Assembly (NCBI GenBank): GCA_040902505.1
Contig: JBBDXE010000025.1
Location: forward strand, 16,221-80,220
Length of the DNA: 64,000 nucleotides
Source of the DNA: Dehalococcoidia bacterium
Lineage (GTDB): Bacteria > Chloroflexota > Dehalococcoidia > DSTF01 > JACRBR01
Reading direction: 5' to 3'
Positions 270 to 12,421 of the stretch are shown here, piece by piece. Numbering within the stretch: the stretch's first letter is position 1; every line of letters starts with the position of its first letter. The position numbers and the translations under genes were made by a program. The notes under the pieces are model-generated. The model searched no databases, was not told where the DNA came from, and was given only the letters and a program-made list of their open reading frames with translations.

Positions 270-1328
270 ATGACCACGCAGCAGATCGACGAAGCCAAAC
301 TGATGGAGTTCGTGGGGCAGGCCGTGAGCGACATGGGCGCGGTGCTGCTCGGAAACCTCGTGGCCATCGGCGACAAGCTGGGGCTGTACCGCGGCCTCGC
401 CGGGGCCGCGCCGATGACCCCCGGCGAGCTGGCGCAGAAGACCGGCACCGCCGAGCGCTACATCCGCGAGTGGCTCAACGCGCAGTCGGCCGGCGGGTAC
501 GTCACCTACACCGGCGACGGACGCTACACCCTCTCGCCCGAGCAGACCGAGGCCCTCACGAACGAAGAGAGCCCCGCCTTCGTGCTGGGCGGCTTCCAGG
601 GCATGACCGCCGCGACGATGGCCCGCCCCCGCCTCATCGAGGCGTTCAAGAGCGGCAAGGGCGTGGGATGGGACGAGCACGACCCGGACCTGTTCCAGGG
701 CACCGAGCGCTTCTTCCGCCCCGGCTACGCCGCCAACCTCGTCGCCGCGTGGCTCCCCGCGCTCGACGGCGTCGTGCCGAAGCTCGAGGCCGGTGCGTCC
801 GTCGCCGACGTCGGCTGCGGCCACGGCGCCTCGACGATCATCATGGCCCGCGCCTACCCGAAGTCGAAGTTCACCGGCTTCGACTACCACGCTCCGTCGA
901 TCGAGGCGGCGCGCAAGGCGGCGAAGGACGCCGGGGTGACGAACTGCGACTTCCAGGTCGCCTCCGCGAAGGACTACCCCGGCTCGTACGACCTCGTCTG
1001 CCACTTCGACTGCCTGCACGACATGGGCGATCCCGCCGGCGCCGCCGCCTACACGCTGAAGTCGCTCAAGCCCGGTGGCACCTGGATGCTCGTCGAGCCC
1101 TTCGCGAACGACGATGTCGCGGACAACCTGAACCTCGTCGGGAAGGTCTTCTACTCCGCGTCGACGTTCATCTGCACGCCGGCGTCGCTGGCGCAGGAAG
1201 TGGGGACGGCGCTGGGCGCGCAGGCGGGCGAGAAGCGCCTCGGCGAAGTCGCGCGGCAGGCCGGCTTCACCCGCTTCCGCCGCGCCGCCGAGACCCCCTT
1301 CAACCTCATCCTCGAAGCCCGCGCCTGA
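270..1328 (+). CDS. class I SAM-dependent methyltransferase
   Basis: 352-aa ORF with the Gly-rich SAM motif I VADVGCGHGAS, an acidic loop FDYHAPSIEAARKAA, the post-II motif LKPGGTWML and a DCLHDMGDP motif. Clean ATG start. High-GC codon usage with third-position G/C. Confidence 0.8.
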   Translation: MTTQQIDEAKLMEFVGQAVSDMGAVLLGNLVAIGDKLGLYRGLAGAAPMTPGELAQKTGTAERYIREWLNAQSAGGYVTYTGDGRYTLSPEQTEALTNEESPAFVLGGFQGMTAATMARPRLIEAFKSGKGVGWDEHDPDLFQGTERFFRPGYAANLVAAWLPALDGVVPKLEAGASVADVGCGHGASTIIMARAYPKSKFTGFDYHAPSIEAARKAAKDAGVTNCDFQVASAKDYPGSYDLVCHFDCLHDMGDPAGAAAYTLKSLKPGGTWMLVEPFANDDVADNLNLVGKVFYSASTFICTPASLAQEVGTALGAQAGEKRLGEVARQAGFTRFRRAAETPFNLILEARA

Positions 1329-1515: not shown

Positions 1516-1590
1516 TTACCCCCAGCAACAGCCGCCGTGGCCGGACGAGGTAGCCAGCCCACGATGCCCATAGTCGAGCCGAGGTTGAAC

Positions 1591-2499
1591 CTACGTGCCC
1601 AGTGGCAAAACCCGAACCCGGCCTGCATCCAAGTCAAGCTCGACGCGGCCACCGCCCTGAGCGTTGATGTCGTTCCAAGCCCTGAAGCCCTGCATTATCG
1701 CGTCTTCCCACTCGCCGGCTGTTCGGCGACTCACTTCTAGGTGATCCGTCATCGTCTTGACCGTACGCAATAGCTCGTAGTCAAGCCGAATCAAGCCGCG
1801 AAGGAAGTCTCGCCGCTCCGCATAGCTGAACACCAAGGCAGTGATGCCTTCCTCGATGACGATTGCACGACCACCATCTTCCACCTCGTCAACTGTTGGG
1901 TCGCTTCTGCGCTTCCGGTCAAGAAACTTTCGTGTTAGCGGCGACCAGCCCAACACAGCGGCGTATGCCAGGTGCAGAACATCGTGGAATCGATACCCGT
2001 CTTCCACGTGACGATTGTCCGTGAGCGGATCTCCAAAGGGGGCACCATCGACGGTTGTCCTCGTGCGTGCCTCGCCACTTTCCGCGGCAAAGAACTCAGC
2101 GACCATTCGCCTAGAAAGCCGCTCGGTTGAGGGGAAACCCTCATCCAGCGATTGACGCGGGATCGGCAACTTCATCTGGTCGTGGCCTACTTGTTCCCAG
2201 CGCGCGCGACACTTCTGCAGATTGCCCTCTGCGACATCGGATAGGCGGAGCCCGAGTTTGGATGTCGAGCACGCGAGATACCAGAGGAGGTCGCCGAGTT
2301 CCTCGCGTGCCCTATCACGGAAGAGGAGGTACGCCTCACCGTCCCTCACATATTTCTTGTACTCGCTCAGGATCTCGCCCACCTCTCCAGCGAGCCCTAA
2401 GAGTGGAATCACGACGGCTGCAGCTGACTTCTCATCGCCTAGCGTCTTAGACACTTGATCCGTGTCAAGAGCCCTTGCCTGATACTCGTCTATGTCCAT
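1591..2499 (-). CDS. MazG-like all-alpha NTP pyrophosphohydrolase domain protein with uncharacterised C-terminal domain
   Basis: N-terminal region contains LGLAGEVGEILSEYKK...EELGDLLWYLA...NLQKCRARW, i.e. the EExxE/ELGDLL metal-binding helices of MazG/HisE-type pyrophosphatases. C-terminal ~170 aa unrecognised. Lies in the AT-richer island. Confidence 0.7.
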   Translation of the reverse strand: MDIDEYQARALDTDQVSKTLGDEKSAAAVVIPLLGLAGEVGEILSEYKKYVRDGEAYLLFRDRAREELGDLLWYLACSTSKLGLRLSDVAEGNLQKCRARWEQVGHDQMKLPIPRQSLDEGFPSTERLSRRMVAEFFAAESGEARTRTTVDGAPFGDPLTDNRHVEDGYRFHDVLHLAYAAVLGWSPLTRKFLDRKRRSDPTVDEVEDGGRAIVIEEGITALVFSYAERRDFLRGLIRLDYELLRTVKTMTDHLEVSRRTAGEWEDAIMQGFRAWNDINAQGGGRVELDLDAGRVRVLPLGT

Positions 2500-2603
2500 G
2501 GCCTACCTCCAGGTGGGACCGCGCATCCCCCTAGCTGCTACTGGAACTGCCGTGCATGTAGGCGCCAGCTTGCCAACGCCCGATCAAGGCGTAAACTGGC
2601 CAC

Positions 2604-3275
2604 GTGCAGTTCGAGCGCCGCGTGCTCTCGTTTGTCAGCTCCCTTACGGAAGCCGACTTGCCATCGCACTTCACGAATCCCTACAAGACCGGCCACACTG
2701 CTCGGAACCTCCTGCTCTTTCTCACACGGCGGGATCGTCTTGCTTGGACGCTCTTGGCGATCGGCGAGGCCCCTGGCTACCGCGGCGCAGTGATGTCAGG
2801 CGTCCCTCTCAGTTCTCTCGCAACGCTTGCGGATCCATGGGGCGATCCTTGGGAGTCGTTCGGTCCGTCCAAAGGGTATAGCTTCCCGCCGAACCCGTTG
2901 TACTGGCGAGAAGCAACGGCCACGATCATATGGGAATCCTTCGCGATGCACCTTGCCGACTCACCCCTTCCACTCACATGGAACGCCGTGCCATTTCATC
3001 CGCAGAAAAACGGCCGCGCTTCGAACGCGTCGCTGCGCGCAAATCAATTGCACATTGGCCAACCGTGGATCGAGCGGCTTCTCGAGCTCTTCCCAAACGT
3101 CTTCCCTGTTGCAGTTGGCCGGCGTGCCTGCGAAACGCTATGCCAGCTGAAGGTCGACCATGAGGCAATTCGCCATCCGTCACGAGGCGGGAAGCAAGAG
3201 TTCAGCATGGGACTCGCTCGTGTTCGCTCTCTGATGTCACCTCCTCCTGCAACGAGCTCGCTAACGGTCGCATGA
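2604..3275 (+). CDS. uracil-DNA glycosylase superfamily protein (family 4/5-like)
   Basis: Motif A AIGEAPGYRG (GE[AG]PG) about 55 aa from the N-terminus and motif B EAIRHPSRGG (HPS) near the C-terminus, with spacing as in the UDG fold. Confidence 0.65.
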   Translation: MQFERRVLSFVSSLTEADLPSHFTNPYKTGHTARNLLLFLTRRDRLAWTLLAIGEAPGYRGAVMSGVPLSSLATLADPWGDPWESFGPSKGYSFPPNPLYWREATATIIWESFAMHLADSPLPLTWNAVPFHPQKNGRASNASLRANQLHIGQPWIERLLELFPNVFPVAVGRRACETLCQLKVDHEAIRHPSRGGKQEFSMGLARVRSLMSPPPATSSLTVA

Positions 3276-3972
3276 CGCCGATCCTCCCGAGGCGCGCATC
3301 CGTGCTCACGACAACCAGCCCGCCGCAAGTGAGCCTGGACTCCGCCGCCACAAGTTGCTGCAATCGTGCTAAGCCAACGAAGTTACCATACGCTTTTTCA
3401 TGATAGTAATGGGAACGGTAGACAGCGGTCACAACCAGCTCGTCGGCATCGCGATGAAACTGAACTTCTGAGAGGCATGGGAACCCAACTCGTGCGATGG
3501 CCGTCCGTCCGGGGCGTTCAAGCACGATGGGCCCTGGATCTGCCCATTTGCCACCGTCTGGTGTTCGATGGTTGAGCGCATCGATCACATCCCTAATCTG
3601 ATTGACGTTGGTGCCGTCCCCTTCATAGTCCACCATGCGCCGAAAATACGAGTTGGTTGGCAACTTGGGTAAGAGACGGAAGCCGACTCGCTCCCAATCG
3701 ACTGCTCGTGCCACAGTTAGTGGCAAGATCGTGCGGGCGACGACCCTAACGCGATCTGTGGCAGCCGCGCCCAATGCAGCATCCAGACGGCGAGCAAACG
3801 CGGAGCAGTCAGCCTGCGGCTCGGCGATCGACACAACCAAATTACGGATCCGGTGACCCGGTTGTCTCAACAGCGCGAGCACCGCTGCTCTCCACGCATC
3901 CTCCAACGTGCGGGCATCGACCAGAACCGCACCCCTCACGGCACGGCTCCCGCGTCGGGAAGTACGCGACAA
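3202..3972 (-). CDS. divergent thymidylate synthase / dCMP hydroxymethylase-fold protein
   Basis: By-eye alignment to ThyA: VGFRLLPKLPT matches DGFPLVTTKR, TNVNQI matches TNIAYL, GFPCLSEVQF matches LPPCHALFQF (catalytic Cys), VYRSH matches LYQRSC, AYGNFVGLARL matches GLPFNIASYALL, CGGLVVVSTDARL matches VGDFVWTGGDTHL. An alternative GTG start at 3939 overlaps the upstream stop by 4 nt (GTGA). Confidence 0.65.
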   Translation of the reverse strand: MSRTSRRGSRAVRGAVLVDARTLEDAWRAAVLALLRQPGHRIRNLVVSIAEPQADCSAFARRLDAALGAAATDRVRVVARTILPLTVARAVDWERVGFRLLPKLPTNSYFRRMVDYEGDGTNVNQIRDVIDALNHRTPDGGKWADPGPIVLERPGRTAIARVGFPCLSEVQFHRDADELVVTAVYRSHYYHEKAYGNFVGLARLQQLVAAESRLTCGGLVVVSTDARLGRIGVMRPLASSLQEEVTSESEHERVPC

Positions 3973-4976
3973 TCACTCATTAGCTGCGGGGCCTTGGCCG
4001 CGAGCCGACGCGCCACGCTCTCGGTCACCGCTCTGAACACAGGCGCTCCCGCCGCCATGTTGTCGTCCCTCTTGGGCGGCCCAATTCTGCGCAGCACTCT
4101 GGCCTCTGCAGCTCCCAGCAACCTCAATGCCCGCAGCCGGCTGATCGTGGCGGCGTGACTGACCCCGAACCTAGATCCAAGCTCGTGAATCCGGTCCAGA
4201 TTCAGAGCCCGGTGGCCGAGGCACTCGCGCACTGCCCTCTGCGGTAGCAGGAACGCCGCCGCGAACACGTCCGCGCGCAACTCGATCCTCTGGCGGGGTC
4301 CCGGCCTTGGCAATTCGGCGGCAGCGCACGCGTATCCGCCGCCCTCGCGATCCAACAAGAAATGCGCTAATTCGTGGGCTAGTGTGAACCGCTGTCTTAC
4401 CGGTGGGTGGTTACTGTTGACAAGCACCGCACTCGATGCGCTGTCTGTAACCACTATGCACCCGGAAATCGACGAACTGACCGGAAGTCGGGCAAGCACC
4501 ACTCCCACGCCTGCCTCCTGAACGAATCCTGACAGTGGAATCACCGGATCCTCTGCTGACAACCCCGTTGCACCACGGAACCAACGTGCGGCCAGTTCGC
4601 CGGCTTGTACTGGAGGAAGCCGGGACACCCGTGGGGGAATAGATAGAGGCATCCAATGCGGATCTGATCCTAGCGCGGACTGAACGGCCGAGAACCAAGC
4701 AAGTTGCGGTTCGTCGTCCGCATGTATGGTTACGCCTCTTAGCCTCATTTTAGGTAGAACTGGACGGCCTCCCTCCCGCGGCGTCAGAAGCAGGTCTGGG
4801 GTTACAGCCAGCAGCGCCGCTAGCCTCACCAACTCCGCAGCCGTGACTGGTCTCGTACCCCGCTCCATACGGCTAACGACCGTCCGGTCGAGGCCTAAGG
4901 CTCTCGCTAGGTCAGACTGGTTCCAACCCCGGCGATAGCGCGCCTGCTGGATATTCCATCCAATTTGTGTGTCCAC
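3936..4976 (-). CDS. fused HTH-XRE DNA-binding / ImmA-IrrE (DUF955) metallopeptidase-domain regulator
   Basis: N-terminal QQARYRRGWNQSDLARALGLDRTVVSRMERGTRPVTAAELVRLAALL is a Cro/C1-type HTH. C-terminal AHELAHFLLD (HExxH) plus RADVFAAAFLLP is typical of ImmA/IrrE. A Pro/Arg-rich linker lies between the two domains. Confidence 0.75.
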   Translation of the reverse strand: MDTQIGWNIQQARYRRGWNQSDLARALGLDRTVVSRMERGTRPVTAAELVRLAALLAVTPDLLLTPREGGRPVLPKMRLRGVTIHADDEPQLAWFSAVQSALGSDPHWMPLSIPPRVSRLPPVQAGELAARWFRGATGLSAEDPVIPLSGFVQEAGVGVVLARLPVSSSISGCIVVTDSASSAVLVNSNHPPVRQRFTLAHELAHFLLDREGGGYACAAAELPRPGPRQRIELRADVFAAAFLLPQRAVRECLGHRALNLDRIHELGSRFGVSHAATISRLRALRLLGAAEARVLRRIGPPKRDDNMAAGAPVFRAVTESVARRLAAKAPQLMSDCRVLPDAGAVP

Positions 4977-5245
4977 GGACGCAGACTAGACGACGGCGCA
5001 CGAGTCATGCAATAGATCTCTCGATAGTGTGCTAGATCAGCACATCACGCGGGACGCGATTCTCTTGAAACTGCCATCCGCCCATCCTTGACCCCTTACA
5101 CCCCCCGCCGCTACCCTTCCCCCACGATGAACCTCCACCGCATGGCGATGCCTCTGCCCCGGGAGAGCCGGGGCGCCCGTCTGGGATAGCGCCAGCATCC
5201 CCCGGCCACCCCCTGCGGCGGCCGGAGCCACGGAGGTCACACGCC

Positions 5246-6493
5246 ATGCCGTTCGCCCAGTCCCTGCGTTGCCGCGAGTGCAACCGTGAGTATCCCCTCG
5301 AGCCCCTGCACGTCTGCGAGTTCTGCTTCGGCCCCCTCGAAGTCGCCTACGACTACACCGCGATGCACCGCACCGTCACCCGCGAGTCCATCGAGCGCGG
5401 GCCCAACTCCGTCTGGCGCTACGCAGACCTCCTCCCCGCCGACCCCGCTCAGGCCGTCGACATCAACGCCGGCTTCACCCCCCTCGTCCGCGCCCGCAAC
5501 CTGGGCGAGCACCTGGGCCTGCGCAACCTCTGGCTCAAGAACGACTGCGCCAACCCCACCTGGTCCTTCAAGGACCGCGTCGTCACCGTCGCCGCGACGA
5601 AGGCCCGCGAGTTCGGCTTCGACACCCTCGCCTGCGCCTCCACCGGCAACCTCGCGAACAGCGTCTCCGCCCACGCCGCCGCCGCCGGCCTGAAATCGAT
5701 CGTCTTCATCCCCCACGACCTCGAGCGCGGCAAGATCCTCGGCTCCAGCGTCTACGGCGCCACCCTCGTCGCCGTCGACGGCAACTACGACGACGTCAAC
5801 CGCCTCTGCTCCGAGCTGGCCGACAGCTACCCGTGGGCGTTCGTCAACATCAACATGCGGCCGTACTACGCCGAGGGCAGCAAGACCCTCGGCTACGAGG
5901 TCGCCGAACAGCTCGGCTGGCGCGCCCCGGAGCACGTCGTCGTGCCGATGGCGTCGGGCTCGCTGTACGTGAAGATCTGGAAGGGGCTGCAGGAGCTGGC
6001 CCGCCTCTGGCTCATCGACAGCGTGCAGACGAAGATGTCCGGCGCCCAGGCCCGCGGCTGCTCCCCCATCGTCACCGCCTACGAGGCCGGCACCACCAAC
6101 GTCCGCCCCGTCCGGCCCGACACCATCGCCAAGTCGCTGGCCATCGGCAACCCCGCCGACGGCTACTACGCCCTCAAGGTCATGCAGGAGTCCGGCGGCT
6201 ACGGCGTCGCCGCCTCCGACGACGAGATCATCGACGGGATCAAGCTCCTCGCCGAGTCCGAGGGCATCTTCGCCGAGACCGCCGGCGGCGTCGTCACCGC
6301 CTGCCTGAAGAAGCTCGCCCAGGCCGGACGCATCGCCCCCGACGAGGTCACCGTCGCCTACATCACCGGCTCCGGCCTGAAGACGCAGGAGGCCGTCGAG
6401 GACCACGTCGCCCAGCCCGTCCACATCGCCCCCACCATCGCGTCGTTCGAGGAGCTGGTGCGCCCCCGCGAGCGCGAGCTGGCGGCATCATGA
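5246..6493 (+). CDS. threonine synthase family PLP enzyme (ThrC/MetM-like) with N-terminal Cys4 zinc ribbon
   Basis: CRECNREYPLEPLHVCEFC zinc ribbon. PLP lysine region NPTWSFKDR, Gly-rich loop ASTGNLANS and an ITGSGLK C-terminal motif are typical of ThrC-family fold-type II enzymes. Confidence 0.85.
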   Translation: MPFAQSLRCRECNREYPLEPLHVCEFCFGPLEVAYDYTAMHRTVTRESIERGPNSVWRYADLLPADPAQAVDINAGFTPLVRARNLGEHLGLRNLWLKNDCANPTWSFKDRVVTVAATKAREFGFDTLACASTGNLANSVSAHAAAAGLKSIVFIPHDLERGKILGSSVYGATLVAVDGNYDDVNRLCSELADSYPWAFVNINMRPYYAEGSKTLGYEVAEQLGWRAPEHVVVPMASGSLYVKIWKGLQELARLWLIDSVQTKMSGAQARGCSPIVTAYEAGTTNVRPVRPDTIAKSLAIGNPADGYYALKVMQESGGYGVAASDDEIIDGIKLLAESEGIFAETAGGVVTACLKKLAQAGRIAPDEVTVAYITGSGLKTQEAVEDHVAQPVHIAPTIASFEELVRPRERELAAS

Positions 6494-6691
6494 AGCCGCA
6501 CCCCACCATCGCTCACCCCTCCCACCACCCCTTCCCTTCAGGGAAGGGGCTGGGGTTAGGTCCGGGGCGGAGCGGGGCCGTAGCAATCCCTGACGTCGGC
6601 GGCGTCTGTGGTTCCCCAACTCCCACGGCCCCCGTACACTGCGACCTGCACGCCCGCGCGCCCCGCGCGCACACCCACGAGCGAGGCCCAC

Positions 6692-6934
6692 ATGGCACGC
6701 CAGCGCGTTAAGTTCACCTTCCCGCAAGAACTCATCACCCTGCCCCTCATCTACGAGCTGGGCAAGAACTTCACCCTCGTCACCAACATCCGCCGCGCCG
6801 ACGTCACCGAGGACCGCGGCTGGATCGTCCTCGAGGTCGAGGGCGACCTGACGGAGATCGAGCGGGCGCTGGACTGGGTCTCGGCGAAGGGCGTCCGCGT
6901 CGACCCCGTCCCCGGCGACATCGTCGAAGGCTAA
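6692..6934 (+). CDS. NIL-domain small protein
   Basis: 81 aa: MARQRVKFTFPQELITLPLIYELGKNFTLVTNIRRADVTEDRGWIVLEVEGDLTEIERALDWVSAKGVRVDPV. Ferredoxin-like NIL domain pattern, as at the MetN C-terminus. Confidence 0.6.
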   Translation: MARQRVKFTFPQELITLPLIYELGKNFTLVTNIRRADVTEDRGWIVLEVEGDLTEIERALDWVSAKGVRVDPVPGDIVEG

Positions 6935-7030
6935 CGAGCGGTCAGCCATCAGCCAGTCAGCAGTCAGCAGCGACCGATGAGCAGCCACCACGGACCAGCA
7001 ACCGGCGACCAGTAACCAGGACACCAGACC

Positions 7031-7312
7031 ATGGCCCAGATCCGCATCCCGGCACCGCTCCGCAAGCTCACGAACGACATCGAGATCGTGCAGGCGGAGG
7101 CCGCCACCCTCGCCGAGGCCATCGACCGCCTCGAGGGCGACTTCCCCGGCATGAAGGAGCGCCTCTGCGACGAGACCGGCCAGCTCCGCCGCTTCGTCAA
7201 CGTGTACGTCAACGGCGAAGACGTCCGCTTCCTCGACAACCTCGGCACGCCGCTGAAGCCCGGCGACGAGGTGAGCATCGTCCCCGCCGTCGCGGGCGGG
7301 TCCGGGGCGTAG
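7031..7312 (+). CDS. MoaD/ThiS/CysO-family sulfur-carrier protein (GG followed by SGA extension)
   Basis: 93-aa beta-grasp pattern FVNVYVNGEDV...LKPGDEVSIVPAVAGGSGA. The Gly-Gly is followed by three extra residues. Confidence 0.7.
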   Translation: MAQIRIPAPLRKLTNDIEIVQAEAATLAEAIDRLEGDFPGMKERLCDETGQLRRFVNVYVNGEDVRFLDNLGTPLKPGDEVSIVPAVAGGSGA

Positions 7313-7469: not shown

Positions 7470-7870
7470 GCGCGCATGGGCGTCGACCTCACCCCCGGCC
7501 TTCGGCCTGGCCTCGCCGAGGCGAGTCTGCGACCTCTCCACACGATGGAGAGGGAGGAGTGGTGGAGGGCGTTCATTGGGGGCCTCCGCGGTCGAGGGAC
7601 TGGAGGTGGCGGAGGATGGTGTTGCGGAGGCGCATCTTGCGGGCGACGTCGAGGGGCGGGGCGCGGCGAACCTCACCCCCGGCCTTCGGCCTGGCCCTCT
7701 CCACATCGTGGAGAGGGAGGAGGGGAGCGGGGCTTTCGTCGAGCGCACCGCCGGCCGGGGGCCCACACCCGATTTCGGCGTCGAGGGACTGGAGGTGGAG
7801 GTAGATGGCGTTGCGGAGGCGCTCTTTGCGGACGGGGTCGAGGGGCGGGCGGCGGCGGGGGGCACGGCGG
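7470..7870. repeat. tandem direct repeat, about 190-bp unit x ~2 copies with internal hairpins
   Basis: Unit acctcacccccggccttcggcctggcc...ctctccaca[ct][cg][ag]tggagagggaggag...tcgagggactggaggtgg.ggaggatggtgttgcggaggcgc.tcttgcgg at about 7476-7665 and 7666-7860. ggccttcggcc and ctctcca/tggagag are hairpin-forming. Spans the 3' end of CDS 7573-8232 and continues beyond its stop. Confidence 0.6.
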
Positions 7871-8232
7871 AGGGGCCGACCGGTGAGGGCGTCGCGGTTG
7901 GAGGCGTGCTCGTAGTCCGCGACGGAATTCTGGTGGCGGTTGGCGGCGTCGTCGCGGGCGGCGTCGTCGAGGGCGGTGGTGATGCGGCGGCGGAAGTTGA
8001 GGGCGACGGGGCGCTCGCCGAGGATGCGGAGGGCGTCGATGACGGTCTCGCGGATGCGGCCGTCGCGGAGGGCGTTGCGGCGGCCGAGGCCGAGGAGGAC
8101 GCTGCGGGCGACGGGGTCCTGCATGAGGGCGTAGATGACGGCGCGGACGCGGGGGGAGTAGCGGCCGGACTTGAGGCCGTTGAGGTTGCCTTTGGGGGCG
8201 CCGGCGCCGGGGCGGGATCCTCCGTGGGGCAT
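7573..8232 (-). CDS. hypothetical protein, paralog A (conserved N-terminus GAGAPKGNLNxLKSGRYSPRVRAV; C-terminus encoded by tandem repeats)
   Basis: N-terminal ~110 aa are homologous to the ORF at 11915-12421; the 5' ends are also similar at the DNA level. The C-terminal half reads through the 190-bp tandem repeat (PLLPLHDVERARPKAGGEV repeated), so the true stop is uncertain. Confidence 0.45.
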   Translation of the reverse strand: MPHGGSRPGAGAPKGNLNGLKSGRYSPRVRAVIYALMQDPVARSVLLGLGRRNALRDGRIRETVIDALRILGERPVALNFRRRITTALDDAARDDAANRHQNSVADYEHASNRDALTGRPLRRAPRRRPPLDPVRKERLRNAIYLHLQSLDAEIGCGPPAGGALDESPAPLLPLHDVERARPKAGGEVRRAPPLDVARKMRLRNTILRHLQSLDRGGPQ

Positions 8233-9995: not shown

Positions 9996-10088
9996 CATCA
10001 CACCCGCGTCCGCCTGGGGCTGTATCGGCGTGCCGGCGAGGGCCTGTACACTGGCCTTAAGCGCGTCGCAGGCCGAGGCATCGTCGGT

Positions 10089-11820
10089 GTGGATCGCCAT
10101 GGCGTCGGTGTGAATGAGGATGGACATGTGACGACCGAGCAAGGCAGTGCGACGCTGGCGCAGTCAGCCCTGGCCCTTATCGTCCTGACCCTGGTCTTTG
10201 TGTCAGGCATTGGACTTCTCGCGTTTGCATCTTTTGTTGCATTCCGAGATGGCTTCGCTAACGCCCTCGTTGTTCTGTATATGCTCGGCATACTTTGTCT
10301 CGCTGGCACGCTCGTTGCCCTAAACATGGTCGGCTCTCTGACAGTGAAGCACAATGATACCGAGGTCAAACTCGAACAACCTCGGCCGCGGCCCGCGTCA
10401 TCAAACCCAAACGTTGAGGCAGCCCCCGGCACTGCTGAACCTGAAAGAAGGAGGGACGATTCCGCCAGCGAGGCTGCCACGGCAGCTGCTCCAACAGATG
10501 GCGGCAAGAGCTTGTTCTCCGAAGCAATCGACGCGTGGGCAAATCATGACTATGCGTCATTCGACCTGAAGATGATCGCCTACATAGAACAGCAGCAGGA
10601 GGGAGATAAGGCTACGTTCGACGCCTTTCGGCTGTCTTGGCTGTATGAGGCCGGCCAAGGACGCCGACTCCAAGAATTGCATGCCCTCCGCAGGGACAAT
10701 CCCTCTGCTCCCGCGGTTCTGCTTCGACTCGCCGAGGCCTACATGTTTACTGATCAGCCAAAGGTCGCCCTAGATCTCTACGAGCAGGGCGCCGCCCTTT
10801 CAGGCCTCTCTGTGGATCATCGCCGTGAAATTCTGACCGGCCAAGTTCGCGCGCGGATCAAACTTAAGGAATACGAGGCGTCTGAAGGACGCCTGAGGGT
10901 TGCTGAGTTGGAAGACCCAGCACCCCAGTGGCAACACTCCATCCACAAACTGTTCGCCGAGGTCTACGACGCTTGGGATGATCAAGTGCGTAAGCATTGG
11001 CATCTTGAGCAGGCGGGTGGAGGCGAATCCCGGCGACCTCTCTACACGGTTCGACCTGGCCTACAGCTATGGACGTTCCGGCGACAGCCTCTTGTCTCTG
11101 TACCACTACGAGATCTTACGCCGCCAACGCGCTTACGCCATGGAGATAAATAATCTCGGCGTTGCTCTCCAACAGATGGACATGCCAATAACCGCGGCCT
11201 TCTACTACAAGGAAGCGATTGACAAAGGGAACACGTTGTCTTCGGCGAACCTCGCTCGGGTCATGCTCAAGAGTGGCCTCGTGGTCGAAGCGAAACAAGT
11301 GTTGGACGCGGCGCTCTCCCTCAAGGACAGCGAGGGTGAAGCCGTCGAAGTCGATGACAACGTTCATGAAGCACACGCTGTAATCACGCGGGCTGAGGAG
11401 GAAGAGCGCGAGAGGATGATACGAATTGTTGAGGCCAGCCGCCTAGAGCGGCAACTCTTTCTTGCATCGATGGAGAAAGATCAAGTCGCAACAACCATTC
11501 TTCGAGACGACGAGTTCTTGGGTGAGTGGGACACGAACTTTGGCAAGCTAACATTTGCCAAGGAAGGACCCGATTACTCGGCAGCCTTCAAGACGGACGA
11601 CCTTTGGGATTGGTCGCTCAGTGGTGGAATCGATCGCAAAAGGAGAACCTTTACGTTCCGATGGAGCACCAACAAGCACGACTACCGCCGTCCCGATAAC
11701 GACGAAGGCACTGGCTACTTCGTGTTCCGCGAGAACACGTTCGAGGGCTTCCTTCGGAACAGGCCTGACAAGGGAGAAGTCATGGCCGTTACGGGCCGCC
11801 ACCCCTCAGACACCCCCTAA
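10089..11820 (+). pseudogene. membrane-anchored TPR-repeat protein, apparently frameshifted near 11000-11020 (two overlapping ORFs 10089-11153 and 10900-11820)
   Basis: GTG start. Two N-terminal TM helices (LALIVLTLVFVSGIGLLAFASFVAF; LVVLYMLGILCLAGTLVAL), then TPR-like helices (LLRLAEAYMFTDQPKVALDLYEQ). The +1-frame ORF continues with further TPR-like repeats (DLAYSYGRSGDSLLSLYHYEI; NNLGVALQQMDMPITAAFYYKEAIDKGN). AT-richer than surroundings. Confidence 0.5.
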
Positions 11821-11914
11821 TCGGCGGAGTGACACAACCCGATAAGAGATCCGCCCCCGCCTCCTCCACGATCCCTCCAGGCTGACCCGCTGACAGACTG
11901 ACAGGCTCACACCA

Positions 11915-12421
11915 ATGCCAAGAGGAGGCCGCCGCCCCGGAGCCGGAGCCCCGAAGGGCAACCTCAACGCCCTCAAGTCCGGGCGCTACTCCCCGCGCGT
12001 CCGCGCCGTCCTCTACGCTCTCGTCGATGACCCCACCACCCGCTCCGTCCTCCTCCAGGTGGGCCTCCGCGGCGCCGCCCCCCGCGGCCGCCTGCGTGAC
12101 ACCATCACCGACACCATCCGCCTCCTCCACGACCGCCCCGTCTCCGACGAGTTCCGGGCCCGCGTCCGCGCCCTCCTCGGCCGCGACGACGACGCCCGGA
12201 TCGCCCGCCGCGTCCAGAGCGCCATGGACAGCTACCGCAAAGGGACCGGTCAGAGCGCCCTCGCCGAAGGTCCCCTCCGCCGGGGCACCACGCCCGCGGT
12301 AAAGCCGCCGCGCCCGCCGCGCGTCCGCTACCGTCCCGTCCTCCCCCCCGGGCCGCATCTTCTGGGTGGACCTGGAGGAGCCGCCGGAAGCCTCCACCAC
12401 CCCGCCCGAAGCGTGAGGTGA
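11915..12421 (+). CDS. hypothetical protein, paralog B (N-terminus GAGAPKGNLNALKSGRYSPRVRAVLYAL)
   Basis: 168-aa ORF. N-terminal ~110 aa are homologous to paralog A (7573-8232, opposite strand). C-terminus is Pro/Arg-rich. Confidence 0.45.
   Translation: MPRGGRRPGAGAPKGNLNALKSGRYSPRVRAVLYALVDDPTTRSVLLQVGLRGAAPRGRLRDTITDTIRLLHDRPVSDEFRARVRALLGRDDDARIARRVQSAMDSYRKGTGQSALAEGPLRRGTTPAVKPPRPPRVRYRPVLPPGPHLLGGPGGAAGSLHHPARSVR

What the first reader, a model, noticed from the sequence alone, without database searches (positions are those of the whole stretch)
3936..4976. XRE HTH fused to an ImmA/IrrE HExxH peptidase domain, translationally coupled to the TS-like gene
Single-polypeptide XRE+DUF955 proteins act as stress- or DNA-damage-cleavable repressors (IrrE/PprI-like, ImmA-ImmR logic) and are common gatekeepers of prophage or defence cassettes. 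The stop codon overlaps an in-frame GTG of the TS-like ORF (GTGA at 3936-3939), implying co-expression and possible autoregulation of the island.
Basis: partly seen in the sequence, partly recalled or inferred. Interest (0 to 1): 0.55.

Follow-up and report, generated by a model that had tools for sequence, protein, structure and literature searches.

The report
Repressor-protease switch guarding nucleotide-modifying cassette
A single protein that joins a DNA-binding repressor domain to a zinc protease sits at the head of a small horizontally acquired gene cassette of nucleotide-modifying enzymes, carries its own conserved binding site in front of its gene, and is most likely a known type of switch (its closest relatives head CRISPR-Cas operons) that keeps a candidate anti-virus system off until the cell is stressed.

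Summary
ORF 3936-4976 (-) encodes 346 aa with an XRE HTH (aa 9-63) and an M78/ImmA/IrrE peptidase (aa 178-281, HELAH, Glu232). Its TGA overlaps an in-frame GTG (GTGA) of a gene whose product has a thymidylate-synthase fold.

New evidence:
- A palindrome, TGTGC-N7-GCACA (5028-5044), lies just upstream of a -35/-10 pair placed for a leaderless mRNA. It is conserved in all 9 loci of this regulator subfamily and occurs once in the 64 kb window.
- The closest homologues (41-49% identity, about 10 proteins) head either the same cassette (TS-like, UDG-like, MazG+MazG_C) or type I CRISPR-Cas operons.
- Cys217 aligns with the CapP "cysteine switch"; there is no GAF domain.
- Among 80 genomes with more distant TS-like relatives, 69-72 also carry HTH and M78 genes and 54 carry MazG_C and 5-hmdU-DNA-kinase genes.
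- The cassette sits in a low-GC island and is absent from 50,697 phage genomes.

Best reading: an autoregulated, probably cleavable, CapH/CapP-fusion or RmrA-like gatekeeper of a candidate nucleotide-based defence cassette. Cleavage, the inducing signal and defence are all untested, and a RosmerTA-like toxin-antitoxin reading is not excluded. The regulator is a new member of a known kind; the cargo is the more novel part.

The parts
5028..5044 (.). Palindromic candidate operator TGTGCTGATCTAGCACA (TGTGC-N7-GCACA)
   Evidence: Present 55-67 nt upstream of the start codon in all 9 loci of the regulator subfamily. It is the only exact match in the 64 kb window. Matches with 2 mismatches are not above chance: 25 found against 31.8 expected.
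4983..5012 (-). Promoter-like -35 TTGCAT (5012..5007), 18-nt spacer, -10 TAGTCT (4988..4983). The GTG start lies 6 nt downstream, which implies a leaderless mRNA.
   Evidence: Read. The same layout (TTG..., 16-18 nt, TAnnnT, 6-7 nt, start codon) appears in the aligned homologous loci, with the TTG, the A and last T of the -10, and the start codon invariant in alignment A1 and also in L095-L097. The consensus scan did not list it, because its -10 is imperfect.
3936..4976 (-). XRE-HTH / M78 metallopeptidase fusion protein (346 aa)
   Evidence: Pfam. PADLOC capP 2e-28 and full-length RmrA models 1.7e-22. PHROG 2439. AF2 pLDDT 87.6, pTM 0.83. Foldseek hits IrrE, CapP and PprI.
4788..4952 (-). HTH_3 DNA-binding domain (aa 9-63)
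   Evidence: Structural matches to C-proteins, SinR, the CapH N-terminal domain and DdrO.
4737..4742 (-). Leu79-Arg80 in the inter-domain linker, a candidate scissile bond (inference only)
   Evidence: Arg80 is invariant in the subfamily. AF2 places a short strand at aa 77-79. DdrO is cut at L106|R107 and CapH at F82|R83.
4134..4445 (-). Peptidase_M78 domain (aa 178-281). HELAH is encoded at 4362-4376, Cys217 at 4326-4328 and Glu232 at 4281-4283.
   Evidence: Cys217 aligns with the CapP cysteine-switch Cys113 (CapP residues).
3947..3951 (-). GGGAG Shine-Dalgarno-like motif for the TS-like gene, inside the last codons of the regulator
   Evidence: Purine-rich equivalents lie at the same place in L010, L097 and L014.
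3202..3939 (-). TS-fold protein (245 aa from GTG 3939) with conserved FPC(155)L, YR(175) and GN(186) motifs
   Evidence: The family has 1578 cluster representatives and no Pfam model.
2604..3275 (+). UDG-superfamily protein (223 aa; GEAPGYRG and HPS motifs). It is convergent with the TS-like gene and overlaps it by 74 nt.
   Evidence: 50-52% identical to the L014 and L010 orthologues. The L014 copy passes the Pfam UDG cut-off: 29.1 bits against 24.3.
1591..2499 (-). MazG pyrophosphohydrolase fused to MazG_C (302 aa)
   Evidence: Pfam MazG_C 2.5e-69 and MazG 2e-6. Homologues are present in 54 of 80 TS-like loci.
1550..5045 (.). Low-GC island (0.58-0.64 against 0.69-0.74 in the flanks) that holds the four genes
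   Evidence: The same drop in GC is seen for the cassettes in L010, L095 and L097. No tRNA gene or flanking direct repeats were found.

Best explanation
The 346-aa protein is the built-in regulatory switch of a small, horizontally mobile four-gene cassette (regulator, TS-fold enzyme, UDG-like protein, MazG+MazG_C).

Shown: it is a single polypeptide with an XRE HTH, a linker, an intact M78 zinc peptidase carrying a CapP-type cysteine loop, a short IrrE/CapP-like helical segment and a roughly 55-aa tail. Its gene is preceded by a conserved palindrome and a promoter placed for a leaderless transcript. The TS-like gene follows with a 4-nt overlap.

Inferred: a dimer binds the palindrome through its HTH domains and sets transcription of its own gene and of the coupled TS-like gene. 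In relatives where MazG_C follows co-directionally, this would cover the whole operon. By analogy with CapH/CapP, ImmR/ImmA and DdrO/IrrE, a stress or infection signal then frees the peptidase, with the Cys217 loop leaving the zinc. The peptidase cuts the linker, in cis or in trans (candidate bond L79|R80), which separates the HTH from the body of the protein and de-represses the cassette.

The cargo is most likely a nucleotide- or DNA-modification-based anti-phage module. The suggested roles are a pyrimidine C5-modifying TS-like enzyme, a MazG dNTP pyrophosphatase with a predicted kinase domain, and a glycosylase-like protein. Such a module would be dangerous to express constitutively.
For: - Domains and catalytic residues.
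- CapP and IrrE are the closest solved peptidases by sequence and by fold.
- Cys217 aligns with the CapP cysteine-switch Cys113 and is followed by acidic residues: with residue numbers.
- The palindrome and promoter are conserved in 9 of 9 subfamily loci although the flanking DNA differs, and the exact palindrome occurs once in the window.
- Junctions with the TS-like gene overlap or abut.
- Cargo swapping within one regulator subfamily: type I CRISPR-Cas in L001, L004 and L006; the TS-like cassette in the window/L009, L010, L014, L095 and L097. This is what a regulator would do, rather than a toxin-specific antitoxin.
- In 80 genomes with distant TS-like relatives, HTH (70-72) and M78 (69) genes are almost always present, with MazG_C (54) and 5-hmdU-DNA-kinase (54) genes.
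- As a negative control, 0 of 80 distant fused XRE-M78 loci carry TS-like, UDG-like or MazG_C genes.
- Low-GC island, next to a Type ISP restriction enzyme in L095 and inside a defence island in L011.
- The TS-like gene is absent from 50,697 phage genomes and occurs in 1 of 2.9 million viral contigs.
- A TS + kinase + 5-hmdU-kinase system (DS-3) is experimentally anti-phage in E. coli, and MazG, MazG-C and UDG systems are predicted to be defensive (PMC13092281).
Against: - There are no expression, cleavage or phage data.
- The palindrome lies upstream of the -35, centred about 50-62 nt before the start codon. That position is more typical of activators than of repressors.
- No second operator lies before MazG/UDG (2500-2604) or before the cas genes.
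- The GAF domain that forms half of the ssDNA groove in IrrE and CapP is missing, so the signal cannot be assumed to be ssDNA.
- CapH/CapP are normally divergent from their operon, whereas this gene is co-directional.
- The defence role of the cargo rests on guilt by association. DS-3 uses a canonical TS, not this family.
- In the wider fused XRE-M78 family the usual downstream partner is a PIN-type toxin, which is a toxin-antitoxin layout.
Confidence: 0.6

Rival explanations
1. RosmerTA-like toxin-antitoxin pair. The XRE-M78 protein (RmrA-like) neutralises the translationally coupled TS-like protein, which acts as the toxin or effector (for example by depleting or corrupting pyrimidine nucleotides). 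Phage infection inactivates the antitoxin. MazG and UDG are accessory.
For: - Full-length matches to many PADLOC RmrA models, down to E 1.7e-22.
- NCBIfam 'spr1629 family repressor/antitoxin' match, far below its cut-off.
- An antitoxin-first gene pair with overlapping genes is the classical type II layout.
- Distant fused XRE-M78 proteins are followed by proteins of about 150-215 aa, with PIN in 14 of 60 and DUF3368 in 7 of 60.
- RmrA-type antitoxins pair with many unrelated toxins, and deletion of rmrA could not be obtained.
Against: - The closest relatives (43-49% identity), which share the same operator, head type I CRISPR-Cas operons, where protein-level neutralisation of a toxin makes little sense.
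- The TS-like protein keeps the full set of TS catalytic motifs and co-occurs with MazG_C, the 5-hmdU kinase and UDG as a multi-enzyme pathway. In proteobacteria this happens without any HTH or M78 gene (L040, L093).
- The two readings are not mutually exclusive.
Confidence: 0.2
2. The cassette is a housekeeping or self-directed nucleotide salvage or DNA-modification module, or a remnant of a phage hypermodification pathway. The XRE-M78 protein is then simply its local transcription factor, with no role in immunity.
For: - TS-like, MazG, dTMP kinase (L014), radical SAM (L010) and the 5-hmdU DNA kinase are the toolkit of phage thymidine hypermodification; PMC8989533 listed.
- No defence phenotype has been tested.
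Against: - The TS-like family gives no tblastn hit in 50,697 phage genomes and one hit in 2.9 million viral contigs.
- The cassette is a patchily distributed low-GC island.
- It sits beside restriction-modification, dCTP deaminase and CRISPR genes in relatives.
- Its regulator family is typical of defence and mobile elements.
Confidence: 0.1
3. The palindrome is the site of a host CRP/FNR-type or other global regulator (it resembles TGTGA-N6-TCACA and lies at a class-I-like position), and the XRE-M78 protein binds elsewhere or acts only as a protease.
For: The position lies upstream of the -35, and the half-sites resemble CRP-type sites (the comparison is from general knowledge).
Against: - The site travels with the regulator gene in 9 of 9 loci, across different cargo and different contigs with different base composition.
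- It has 7-nt spacing and C/G rather than A/T at the inner position.
- No further copies lie in the 64 kb window.
Confidence: 0.07
4. A conserved core metabolic regulator of the RamB/PrpR type (XRE + M78-like + C-terminal sensor).
For: Weak NCBIfam RamB hit covering only the HTH. The Mtb regulator 6cyy appears among the Foldseek hits.
Against: - The HExxH motif is intact and the protein has no long C-terminal sensor domain.
- Only about 10 close homologues exist in 5.8 billion proteins, and the gene lies in a low-GC island.
- The RamB score is 24 bits against a cut-off of 700.
Confidence: 0.02

Closest known systems
CapH + CapP regulators of CBASS and other immune operons, including CapH-CapP fusions (Lau et al. 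2022, bioRxiv 10.1101/2022.04.27.489752; Calloji et al. 2026, 10.64898/2026.05.16.725639)
   Same: An XRE HTH repressor plus an M78 peptidase encoded at the head of an immune operon. PADLOC capP is the best model hit (2e-28). CapP 7t5t is among the top sequence and fold matches. The cysteine-switch Cys and following acidic residues align. Fusions have been described for 15 CBASS systems and for DISARM systems.
   Different: There is no C-terminal GAF domain, so the peptidase/GAF ssDNA groove cannot exist as described. The gene is co-directional with its cargo and translationally coupled to it, rather than divergent. The cargo is a TS-like/MazG_C/UDG cassette or type I CRISPR-Cas. Cleavage is untested.
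RmrA antitoxin of RosmerTA (Millman et al. 2022; Ernits et al. 2023, PMC10440598)
   Same: The same N-terminal HTH plus ImmA/M78 single-polypeptide architecture and size class, with full-length hits to RmrA HMMs. A downstream gene follows immediately, and partners are highly variable.
   Different: The partner here is a catalytically intact TS-fold enzyme embedded in a multi-enzyme cassette, not a stand-alone toxin of unknown function. The nearest relatives head CRISPR-Cas operons.
ImmR/ImmA of ICEBs1 and phage-like elements; DdrO/IrrE (PprI) of Deinococcus
   Same: An M78 peptidase that cleaves an XRE repressor to de-repress genes after DNA damage. Like this protein, ImmA lacks a GAF domain (from general knowledge). 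IrrE 3dti/3dte and PprI 8sln are top structural hits. A hydrophobic|Arg bond is cut in DdrO, and Leu79-Arg80 is conserved here.
   Different: Those systems have two separate proteins. There is no integrase, excisionase or prophage here, and no RDRM regulon. The IrrE GAF domain is absent.
DS-3 ('NTTI') defence system of E. coli and the predicted MazG/MazG-C/UDG systems (DefensePredictor, PMC13092281)
   Same: Cellular cassettes built from a TS-family enzyme, nucleotide kinases and 5-hmdU-DNA-kinase-type proteins. DS-3 is experimentally anti-phage. Relatives of the window's TS-like gene sit next to HMUDK_hel in 54 of 80 loci.
   Different: DS-3 has a canonical Pfam Thymidylat_synt protein, a TIR domain and Nmad2, and no XRE/M78 pair is reported for it. 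The window cassette has a divergent TS family with no Pfam model, no HMUDK gene, and a UDG-like protein.
Phage thymidine hypermodification pathways (Lee et al. 2021, PMC8989533)
   Same: Enzyme repertoire: dUMP/dCMP C5-modifying TS homologue, MazG, dNMP kinase, 5-hmdU DNA kinase and radical SAM.
   Different: This TS-like family is not found in phage genomes. It is cellular, island-borne and under an XRE/M78 switch.

Membership tests
XRE / Cro-C1 HTH (PF01381) | Score above the Pfam gathering cut-off; five-helix HTH fold | tested here: met
   46.3 bits against 23. The AF2 model has helices 2-64, and Foldseek matches C.BclI, SinR and the CapH N-terminal domain with rmsd 1.1-1.8 A.
Peptidase M78 (ImmA/IrrE, COG2856) | HExxH motif plus a downstream Glu zinc ligand; score above the Pfam cut-off; IrrE-like fold | tested here: met
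   67.5 bits against 22. H201, E202, H205 and E232 are invariant in the subfamily, and H201, E202 and H205 are invariant in 59 sequences. Foldseek hits IrrE, CapP and PprI with probability 1.0.
CapH/CapP-type immune regulator | HTH repressor and M78 peptidase encoded upstream of an immune operon | tested here: met
   The closest homologues lie directly upstream of type I cas operons or of the TS-like cassette. That the TS-like cassette is immune is an inference.
CapH/CapP-type immune regulator | Regulator genes on the strand opposite to the regulated operon | tested here: not met
   Co-directional, with a 4-nt overlap. The feature is stated.
CapH/CapP-type immune regulator | CapP domain order of peptidase, HTH, then a GAF domain that helps form the ssDNA groove | tested here: not met
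   Only about 55 aa follow the HTH-like helices (aa 260-283). There is no GAF hit in Pfam, and Foldseek alignments cover 163-174 columns of IrrE and CapP.
CapH/CapP-type immune regulator | Cysteine-switch loop (present in 33% of CapP proteins) | tested here: met
   Cys217 is invariant in the subfamily and aligns with CapP Cys113. The loop has low AF2 confidence (aa 216-221).
CapH/CapP-type immune regulator | ssDNA- or DNA-damage-stimulated cleavage of the HTH repressor | not testable with these tools
   Needs biochemistry.
RosmerTA (RmrT/RmrA) | RmrA-like HTH plus Zn-peptidase antitoxin | tested here: met
   14 PADLOC RmrA models match at E 1.7e-22 to 3e-6, several over the full length. PADLOC models have no curated cut-off.
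RosmerTA (RmrT/RmrA) | Two-gene module whose partner is a toxin neutralised by RmrA | not testable with these tools
   The partner is a TS-fold enzyme within a four-gene cassette. Toxicity and neutralisation need experiments.
ImmR/ImmA of mobile elements | Separate repressor and anti-repressor genes next to the integrase/excisionase of an ICE or prophage | tested here: not met
   It is a single polypeptide. There is no integrase, tRNA gene or att-like repeat at the island.
RamB/PrpR-type metabolic regulators | Full-length match including the C-terminal sensor domain | tested here: not met
   NCBIfam RamB scores 24 bits against a cut-off of 700, over the HTH only.
Thymidylate synthase / dNMP hydroxymethylase superfamily (neighbouring gene) | TS fold with the nucleophilic Cys, the Arg of the R-S motif and the Asn/Asp specificity residue | tested here: met
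   Foldseek probability 1.0 with TM 0.52-0.62. FPC155, YR175 and GN186 are invariant and align with the IPC, MRS and HN motifs of a canonical TS. It does not reach the Pfam or NCBIfam cut-offs.

The most novel reading that the evidence does not exclude
The XRE-M78 switch and its TS-like/MazG_C/UDG cargo (with a 5-hmdU-DNA-kinase gene in most relatives) form a widespread, undescribed inducible immune system, seen here as about 1,600 protein clusters. On infection the switch is cleaved and the cell makes a non-canonical pyrimidine nucleotide. This either poisons replicating phage DNA, with the glycosylase-like protein converting it into breaks, or targets phages that themselves use hypermodified thymidine. 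In addition, the same self-cleaving regulator subfamily would make type I CRISPR-Cas expression damage- or infection-inducible in Chloroflexota.
Probability: 0.25. Interest if true: 0.75.

Novelty: new member of a known kind. Interest (0 to 1): 0.42.

Why it matters
The regulator itself is ordinary. HTH-M78 fusions are abundant and are already linked to CBASS, DISARM and RosmerTA.

The case gives three useful things. First, it provides a concrete, testable operator and leaderless-promoter model for a fused, GAF-less version of the CapH/CapP switch, which bears on how such fusions sense their signal and whether they cut themselves. Second, one regulator subfamily gates both type I CRISPR-Cas operons and an unrelated enzyme cassette, which illustrates plug-and-play regulation of immunity. 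Third, the regulator points to a large TS-fold family without a Pfam model that is almost always linked to HTH/M78, MazG_C and 5-hmdU-DNA-kinase genes. That family is a good candidate for a nucleotide-modification-based defence system related to the recently validated DS-3.

Tried and rejected
- An exact-sequence look-up of the 346-aa protein found nothing. The public call is a 310-aa truncation.
- The first genome scan with the single TS-like protein found no relatives. A 60-sequence alignment was too divergent to seed a scan. A 13-sequence alignment worked.
- I looked for a second operator in 2500-2604, elsewhere in the island, and between the regulator and the cas genes. There was none, and near-matches were at chance level.
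- The generic promoter and terminator scan did not list the regulator's promoter. It gave only an internal hit at 3602-3629 and one at 2570-2597, immediately upstream of the UDG-like start, which was not followed up.
- PADLOC has no model for the TS-like, UDG-like or MazG proteins.
- A sequence search of the UDG-like protein against the PDB gave nothing. The UDG assignment rests on the orthologues.
- No att-like repeats, tRNA genes or Rfam families mark the island.
- The metagenome scan with the regulator alignment returned only distant relatives (24-39% identity). I used them as a control rather than to extend the subfamily.
- Literature searches found no description of this exact cassette, nothing on PDB entry 9vzy, and no paper linking XRE-M78 regulators to cas operons.
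Full report
**1. Observation**

The minus-strand ORF 3936..4976 starts at the first possible start codon, GTG 4976, and encodes 346 aa.
- Pfam finds HTH_3 at aa 9-63 (46 bits, cut-off 23) and Peptidase_M78 at aa 178-281 (67.5 bits, cut-off 22).
- The HELAH motif is encoded at 4362-4376.
- The stop TGA (3938..3936) overlaps GTG 3939..3937, which is in frame with the downstream ORF. The longest form of that ORF starts at TTG 3972.

The GTG is the better start for four reasons.
- Homologues begin within a few residues of it.
- An independent gene call on the identical island in contig L009 uses it.
- GGGAG lies 7 nt upstream of it.
- Related cassettes have TTGA (L010), TGATG (L097) or a 2-nt gap (L014) at the same junction.

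The downstream protein is a true TS-fold protein. Its AF2 model has pLDDT 84. Foldseek matches a phage dCMP hydroxylase, thymidylate synthases and MilA at probability 1.0, and the Cys, Arg and Asn motifs align with a canonical TS. Public gene calls truncate both genes to 310 aa and 144 aa. The second of these names a Dehalococcoidia MAG as the probable source.

**2. Setting**

The gene lies in a low-GC island of about 3.5 kb (0.58-0.64 against 0.69-0.74 in the flanks). The island sits between an Rv2258c-like methyltransferase gene and a threonine-synthase-like gene. It holds four genes:
- MazG+MazG_C, 1591-2499 (-), MazG_C at 2.5e-69.
- A UDG-superfamily protein, 2604-3275 (+). Its L014 orthologue passes the Pfam UDG cut-off.
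- The TS-like gene.
- The regulator.

There is no integrase, tRNA gene, flanking repeat or Rfam element at the island.

**3. The regulator subfamily and its cargo**

Only about 10 proteins among 5.8 billion are 41-49% identical to the regulator. Their contexts fall into two classes.
- The same cassette. L010: regulator, TS-like (60% identical), a radical SAM gene, and a convergent UDG-like gene. L014: regulator, TS-like, UDG and a dTMP kinase. L095 and L097: regulator, TS-like, MazG_C and a convergent UDG, with L095 next to a Type ISP restriction enzyme.
- Type I CRISPR-Cas operons that start 150-240 nt downstream on the same strand: L001 (I-E) and L004, L006.

One member ends a contig next to phage-like genes. 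One regulator lineage is thus attached to unrelated multi-gene cargo. That is what a modular transcriptional gatekeeper would do, and not what a toxin-specific antitoxin would do.

**4. Operator and promoter**

All nine loci carry TGTGC-N7-GCACA 55-67 nt upstream of the start codon. It is followed by a TTGnnn -35, 16-18 nt of spacer, a TAnnnT -10 and the start codon 6-7 nt later, which implies a leaderless mRNA.

In the window the palindrome is at 5028-5044, the -35 at 5012..5007 and the -10 at 4988..4983. The exact pattern occurs once in 64 kb, and 2-mismatch matches are at chance level (25 against 31.8 expected). This is good comparative evidence for autoregulation.

No second copy precedes MazG/UDG (2500-2604) or the cas genes. 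Only the regulator's own transcription unit is therefore implicated. In the window that unit is the regulator plus the TS-like gene. In L095 and L097 it also includes MazG_C.

The site lies upstream of the -35, so the sequence does not say whether binding represses or activates. A host CRP-like factor is a minor alternative.

**5. Protein anatomy**

The AF2 model built on 59 sequences has pLDDT 87.6 and pTM 0.83. It shows:
- HTH helices at aa 2-64.
- A linker with a short strand at aa 77-79.
- The peptidase with a three-stranded sheet.
- Two IrrE/CapP-like helices at aa 260-283.
- A tail of about 55 aa.

Foldseek and sequence searches place IrrE, PprI and CapP closest. The best sequence match is 9vzy, an undescribed 393-aa HTH-peptidase chain.

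H201, E202, H205, C217 and E232 are invariant in the subfamily. Cys217 aligns with the CapP cysteine-switch Cys113 and is followed by acidic residues (CapP data). No GAF domain is present. The ssDNA groove described for IrrE and CapP therefore cannot be formed in the same way, and the signal is unknown.

Arg80 is invariant and preceded by Leu79. DdrO is cut at L|R and CapH at F|R. I propose L79|R80 as the scissile bond, purely by analogy.

**6. The cargo family**

An exhaustive HMM search finds 1,578 cluster representatives of the TS-like family, 264 of them below 1e-30. The family has no Pfam model.

In 80 named genomes, mostly Streptomyces and other Actinomycetota but also Bacillota, Acidobacteriota, Proteobacteria and Chloroflexota, a local HMM and clustering census finds:
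- separate HTH genes in 70-72 loci and M78 genes in 69;
- MazG+MazG_C in 54;
- a papain-like protein in 26;
- a PPTase in 21;
- radical SAM in 11;
- UDG in 10.

Where the M78 gene directly precedes the TS-like gene, the gap is -29 to +54 nt in 39 loci. Proteobacterial loci such as L040 and L093 have MazG_C, TS-like and UDG without any HTH or M78 gene. The three enzymes therefore form a functional core, and the HTH/M78 pair is its usual control module.

As a control, 80 distant fused XRE-M78 loci contain no TS-like, UDG-like or MazG_C gene. Their downstream partners are typically PIN or DUF3368 proteins. This is the classical toxin-antitoxin layout of RmrA-like proteins.

The TS-like family is absent from 50,697 phage genomes and appears in one of 2.9 million viral contigs.

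DefensePredictor validated an E. coli system (DS-3: TS, adenylate kinase, HMUDK_hel, TIR, Nmad2) as anti-phage. It also predicted defensive systems containing MazG, MazG-C and UDG. A defence role for the window's cassette is thus plausible but inferred.

**7. Verdict**

The protein is an autoregulated HTH-M78 switch heading a mobile cassette, and its nearest relatives gate CRISPR-Cas operons.

The regulator is a new member of a known kind: a CapH-CapP fusion or RmrA-like protein that is GAF-less and co-directional with its cargo. Still unproven are cleavage, the inducing signal, the sign of regulation, control of MazG and UDG, and the defence function. A RosmerTA-like toxin-antitoxin reading keeps about 0.2 probability.

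The more interesting object is the cargo family and its near-obligate link to HTH/M78 switches.

Noticed in passing
window 3202-3939 (-); loci L015-L094: The TS-fold protein belongs to a large family without a Pfam model: 1,578 cluster representatives, 264 of them at E<=1e-30. In 80 genomes it is almost always linked to HTH and M78 genes, MazG_C and a 5-hmdU-DNA-kinase-like gene, and often to a papain-like protein, a PPTase, a radical SAM enzyme or UDG. No paper describing this gene set was found.
   Followed up: partly
window 3202-3275: The convergent TS-like and UDG-like genes overlap by 74 nt at their 3' ends. Similar convergent overlaps occur in L097 (MazG_C/UDG, 58 nt) and L010 (radical SAM/UDG, 125 nt). 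This suggests possible antisense interference or a shared terminator-free arrangement.
   Followed up: no
window 3936-4976 and 3202-3939: Public gene calls truncate both genes. The regulator is called from Met37 (310 aa), which loses the HTH. The TS-like gene is called as a 144-aa hypothetical protein (WEC75_08595, Dehalococcoidia MAG).
   Followed up: yes
window 270-1328 (+); L010 3620-4390 (-): An Rv2258c-like SAM methyltransferase flanks the cassette at the same relative position and orientation in the window and in L010 (39% identity). It has host-like GC. It may mark a shared insertion site or be a loosely associated gene.
   Followed up: partly
window 7573-8232 (-) and 11915-12421 (+); 10000-11900: Two paralogous ORFs in inverted orientation share the N-terminus MP(H/R)GG.RPGAGAPKGNLN.LKSGRYSPRVRA and have no Pfam hit. 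They bracket a segment that holds a GNAT gene and a second low-GC island (0.55-0.60) with two overlapping TPR-like ORFs, one of which is possibly frameshifted.
   Followed up: partly
window 5246-7312 (+): A threonine-synthase-like PLP enzyme with an N-terminal zinc ribbon (it hits NinF) is followed by a NIL-domain protein and a ThiS-family sulfur carrier. This looks like a sulfur-carrier-dependent amino-acid biosynthesis cluster and belongs to the host, not to the island.
   Followed up: no
L098-L177: Distant fused XRE-M78 proteins (24-39% identity) are usually followed within 150 nt by a co-directional protein of 150-215 aa. It is a PIN protein in 14 of 60 and DUF3368 in 7 of 60. The other 38 had no Pfam hit.
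   Followed up: partly
L093 7705-8826: The UDG protein of a proteobacterial MazG_C/TS-like/UDG operon carries an N-terminal zinc ribbon and a weak C-terminal SocA/Panacea antitoxin-like domain (E 2.5e-4, below the cut-off).
   Followed up: no
L011 (GCA_975321925.1 contig): A distant TS-like/ACPS/HTH/M78 locus lies in a defence island that also holds HsdM, an M78+DUF4411 pair, a group II intron reverse transcriptase, a transposase and a dCTP-deaminase-like gene.
   Followed up: no
L178 (IMGVR_UViG_3300049780_000032): This is the only viral contig, out of 2.9 million, with a TS-like relative. It also carries a MazG_C homologue. Whether it is a true virus or a host flank of a provirus was not examined.
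   Followed up: no
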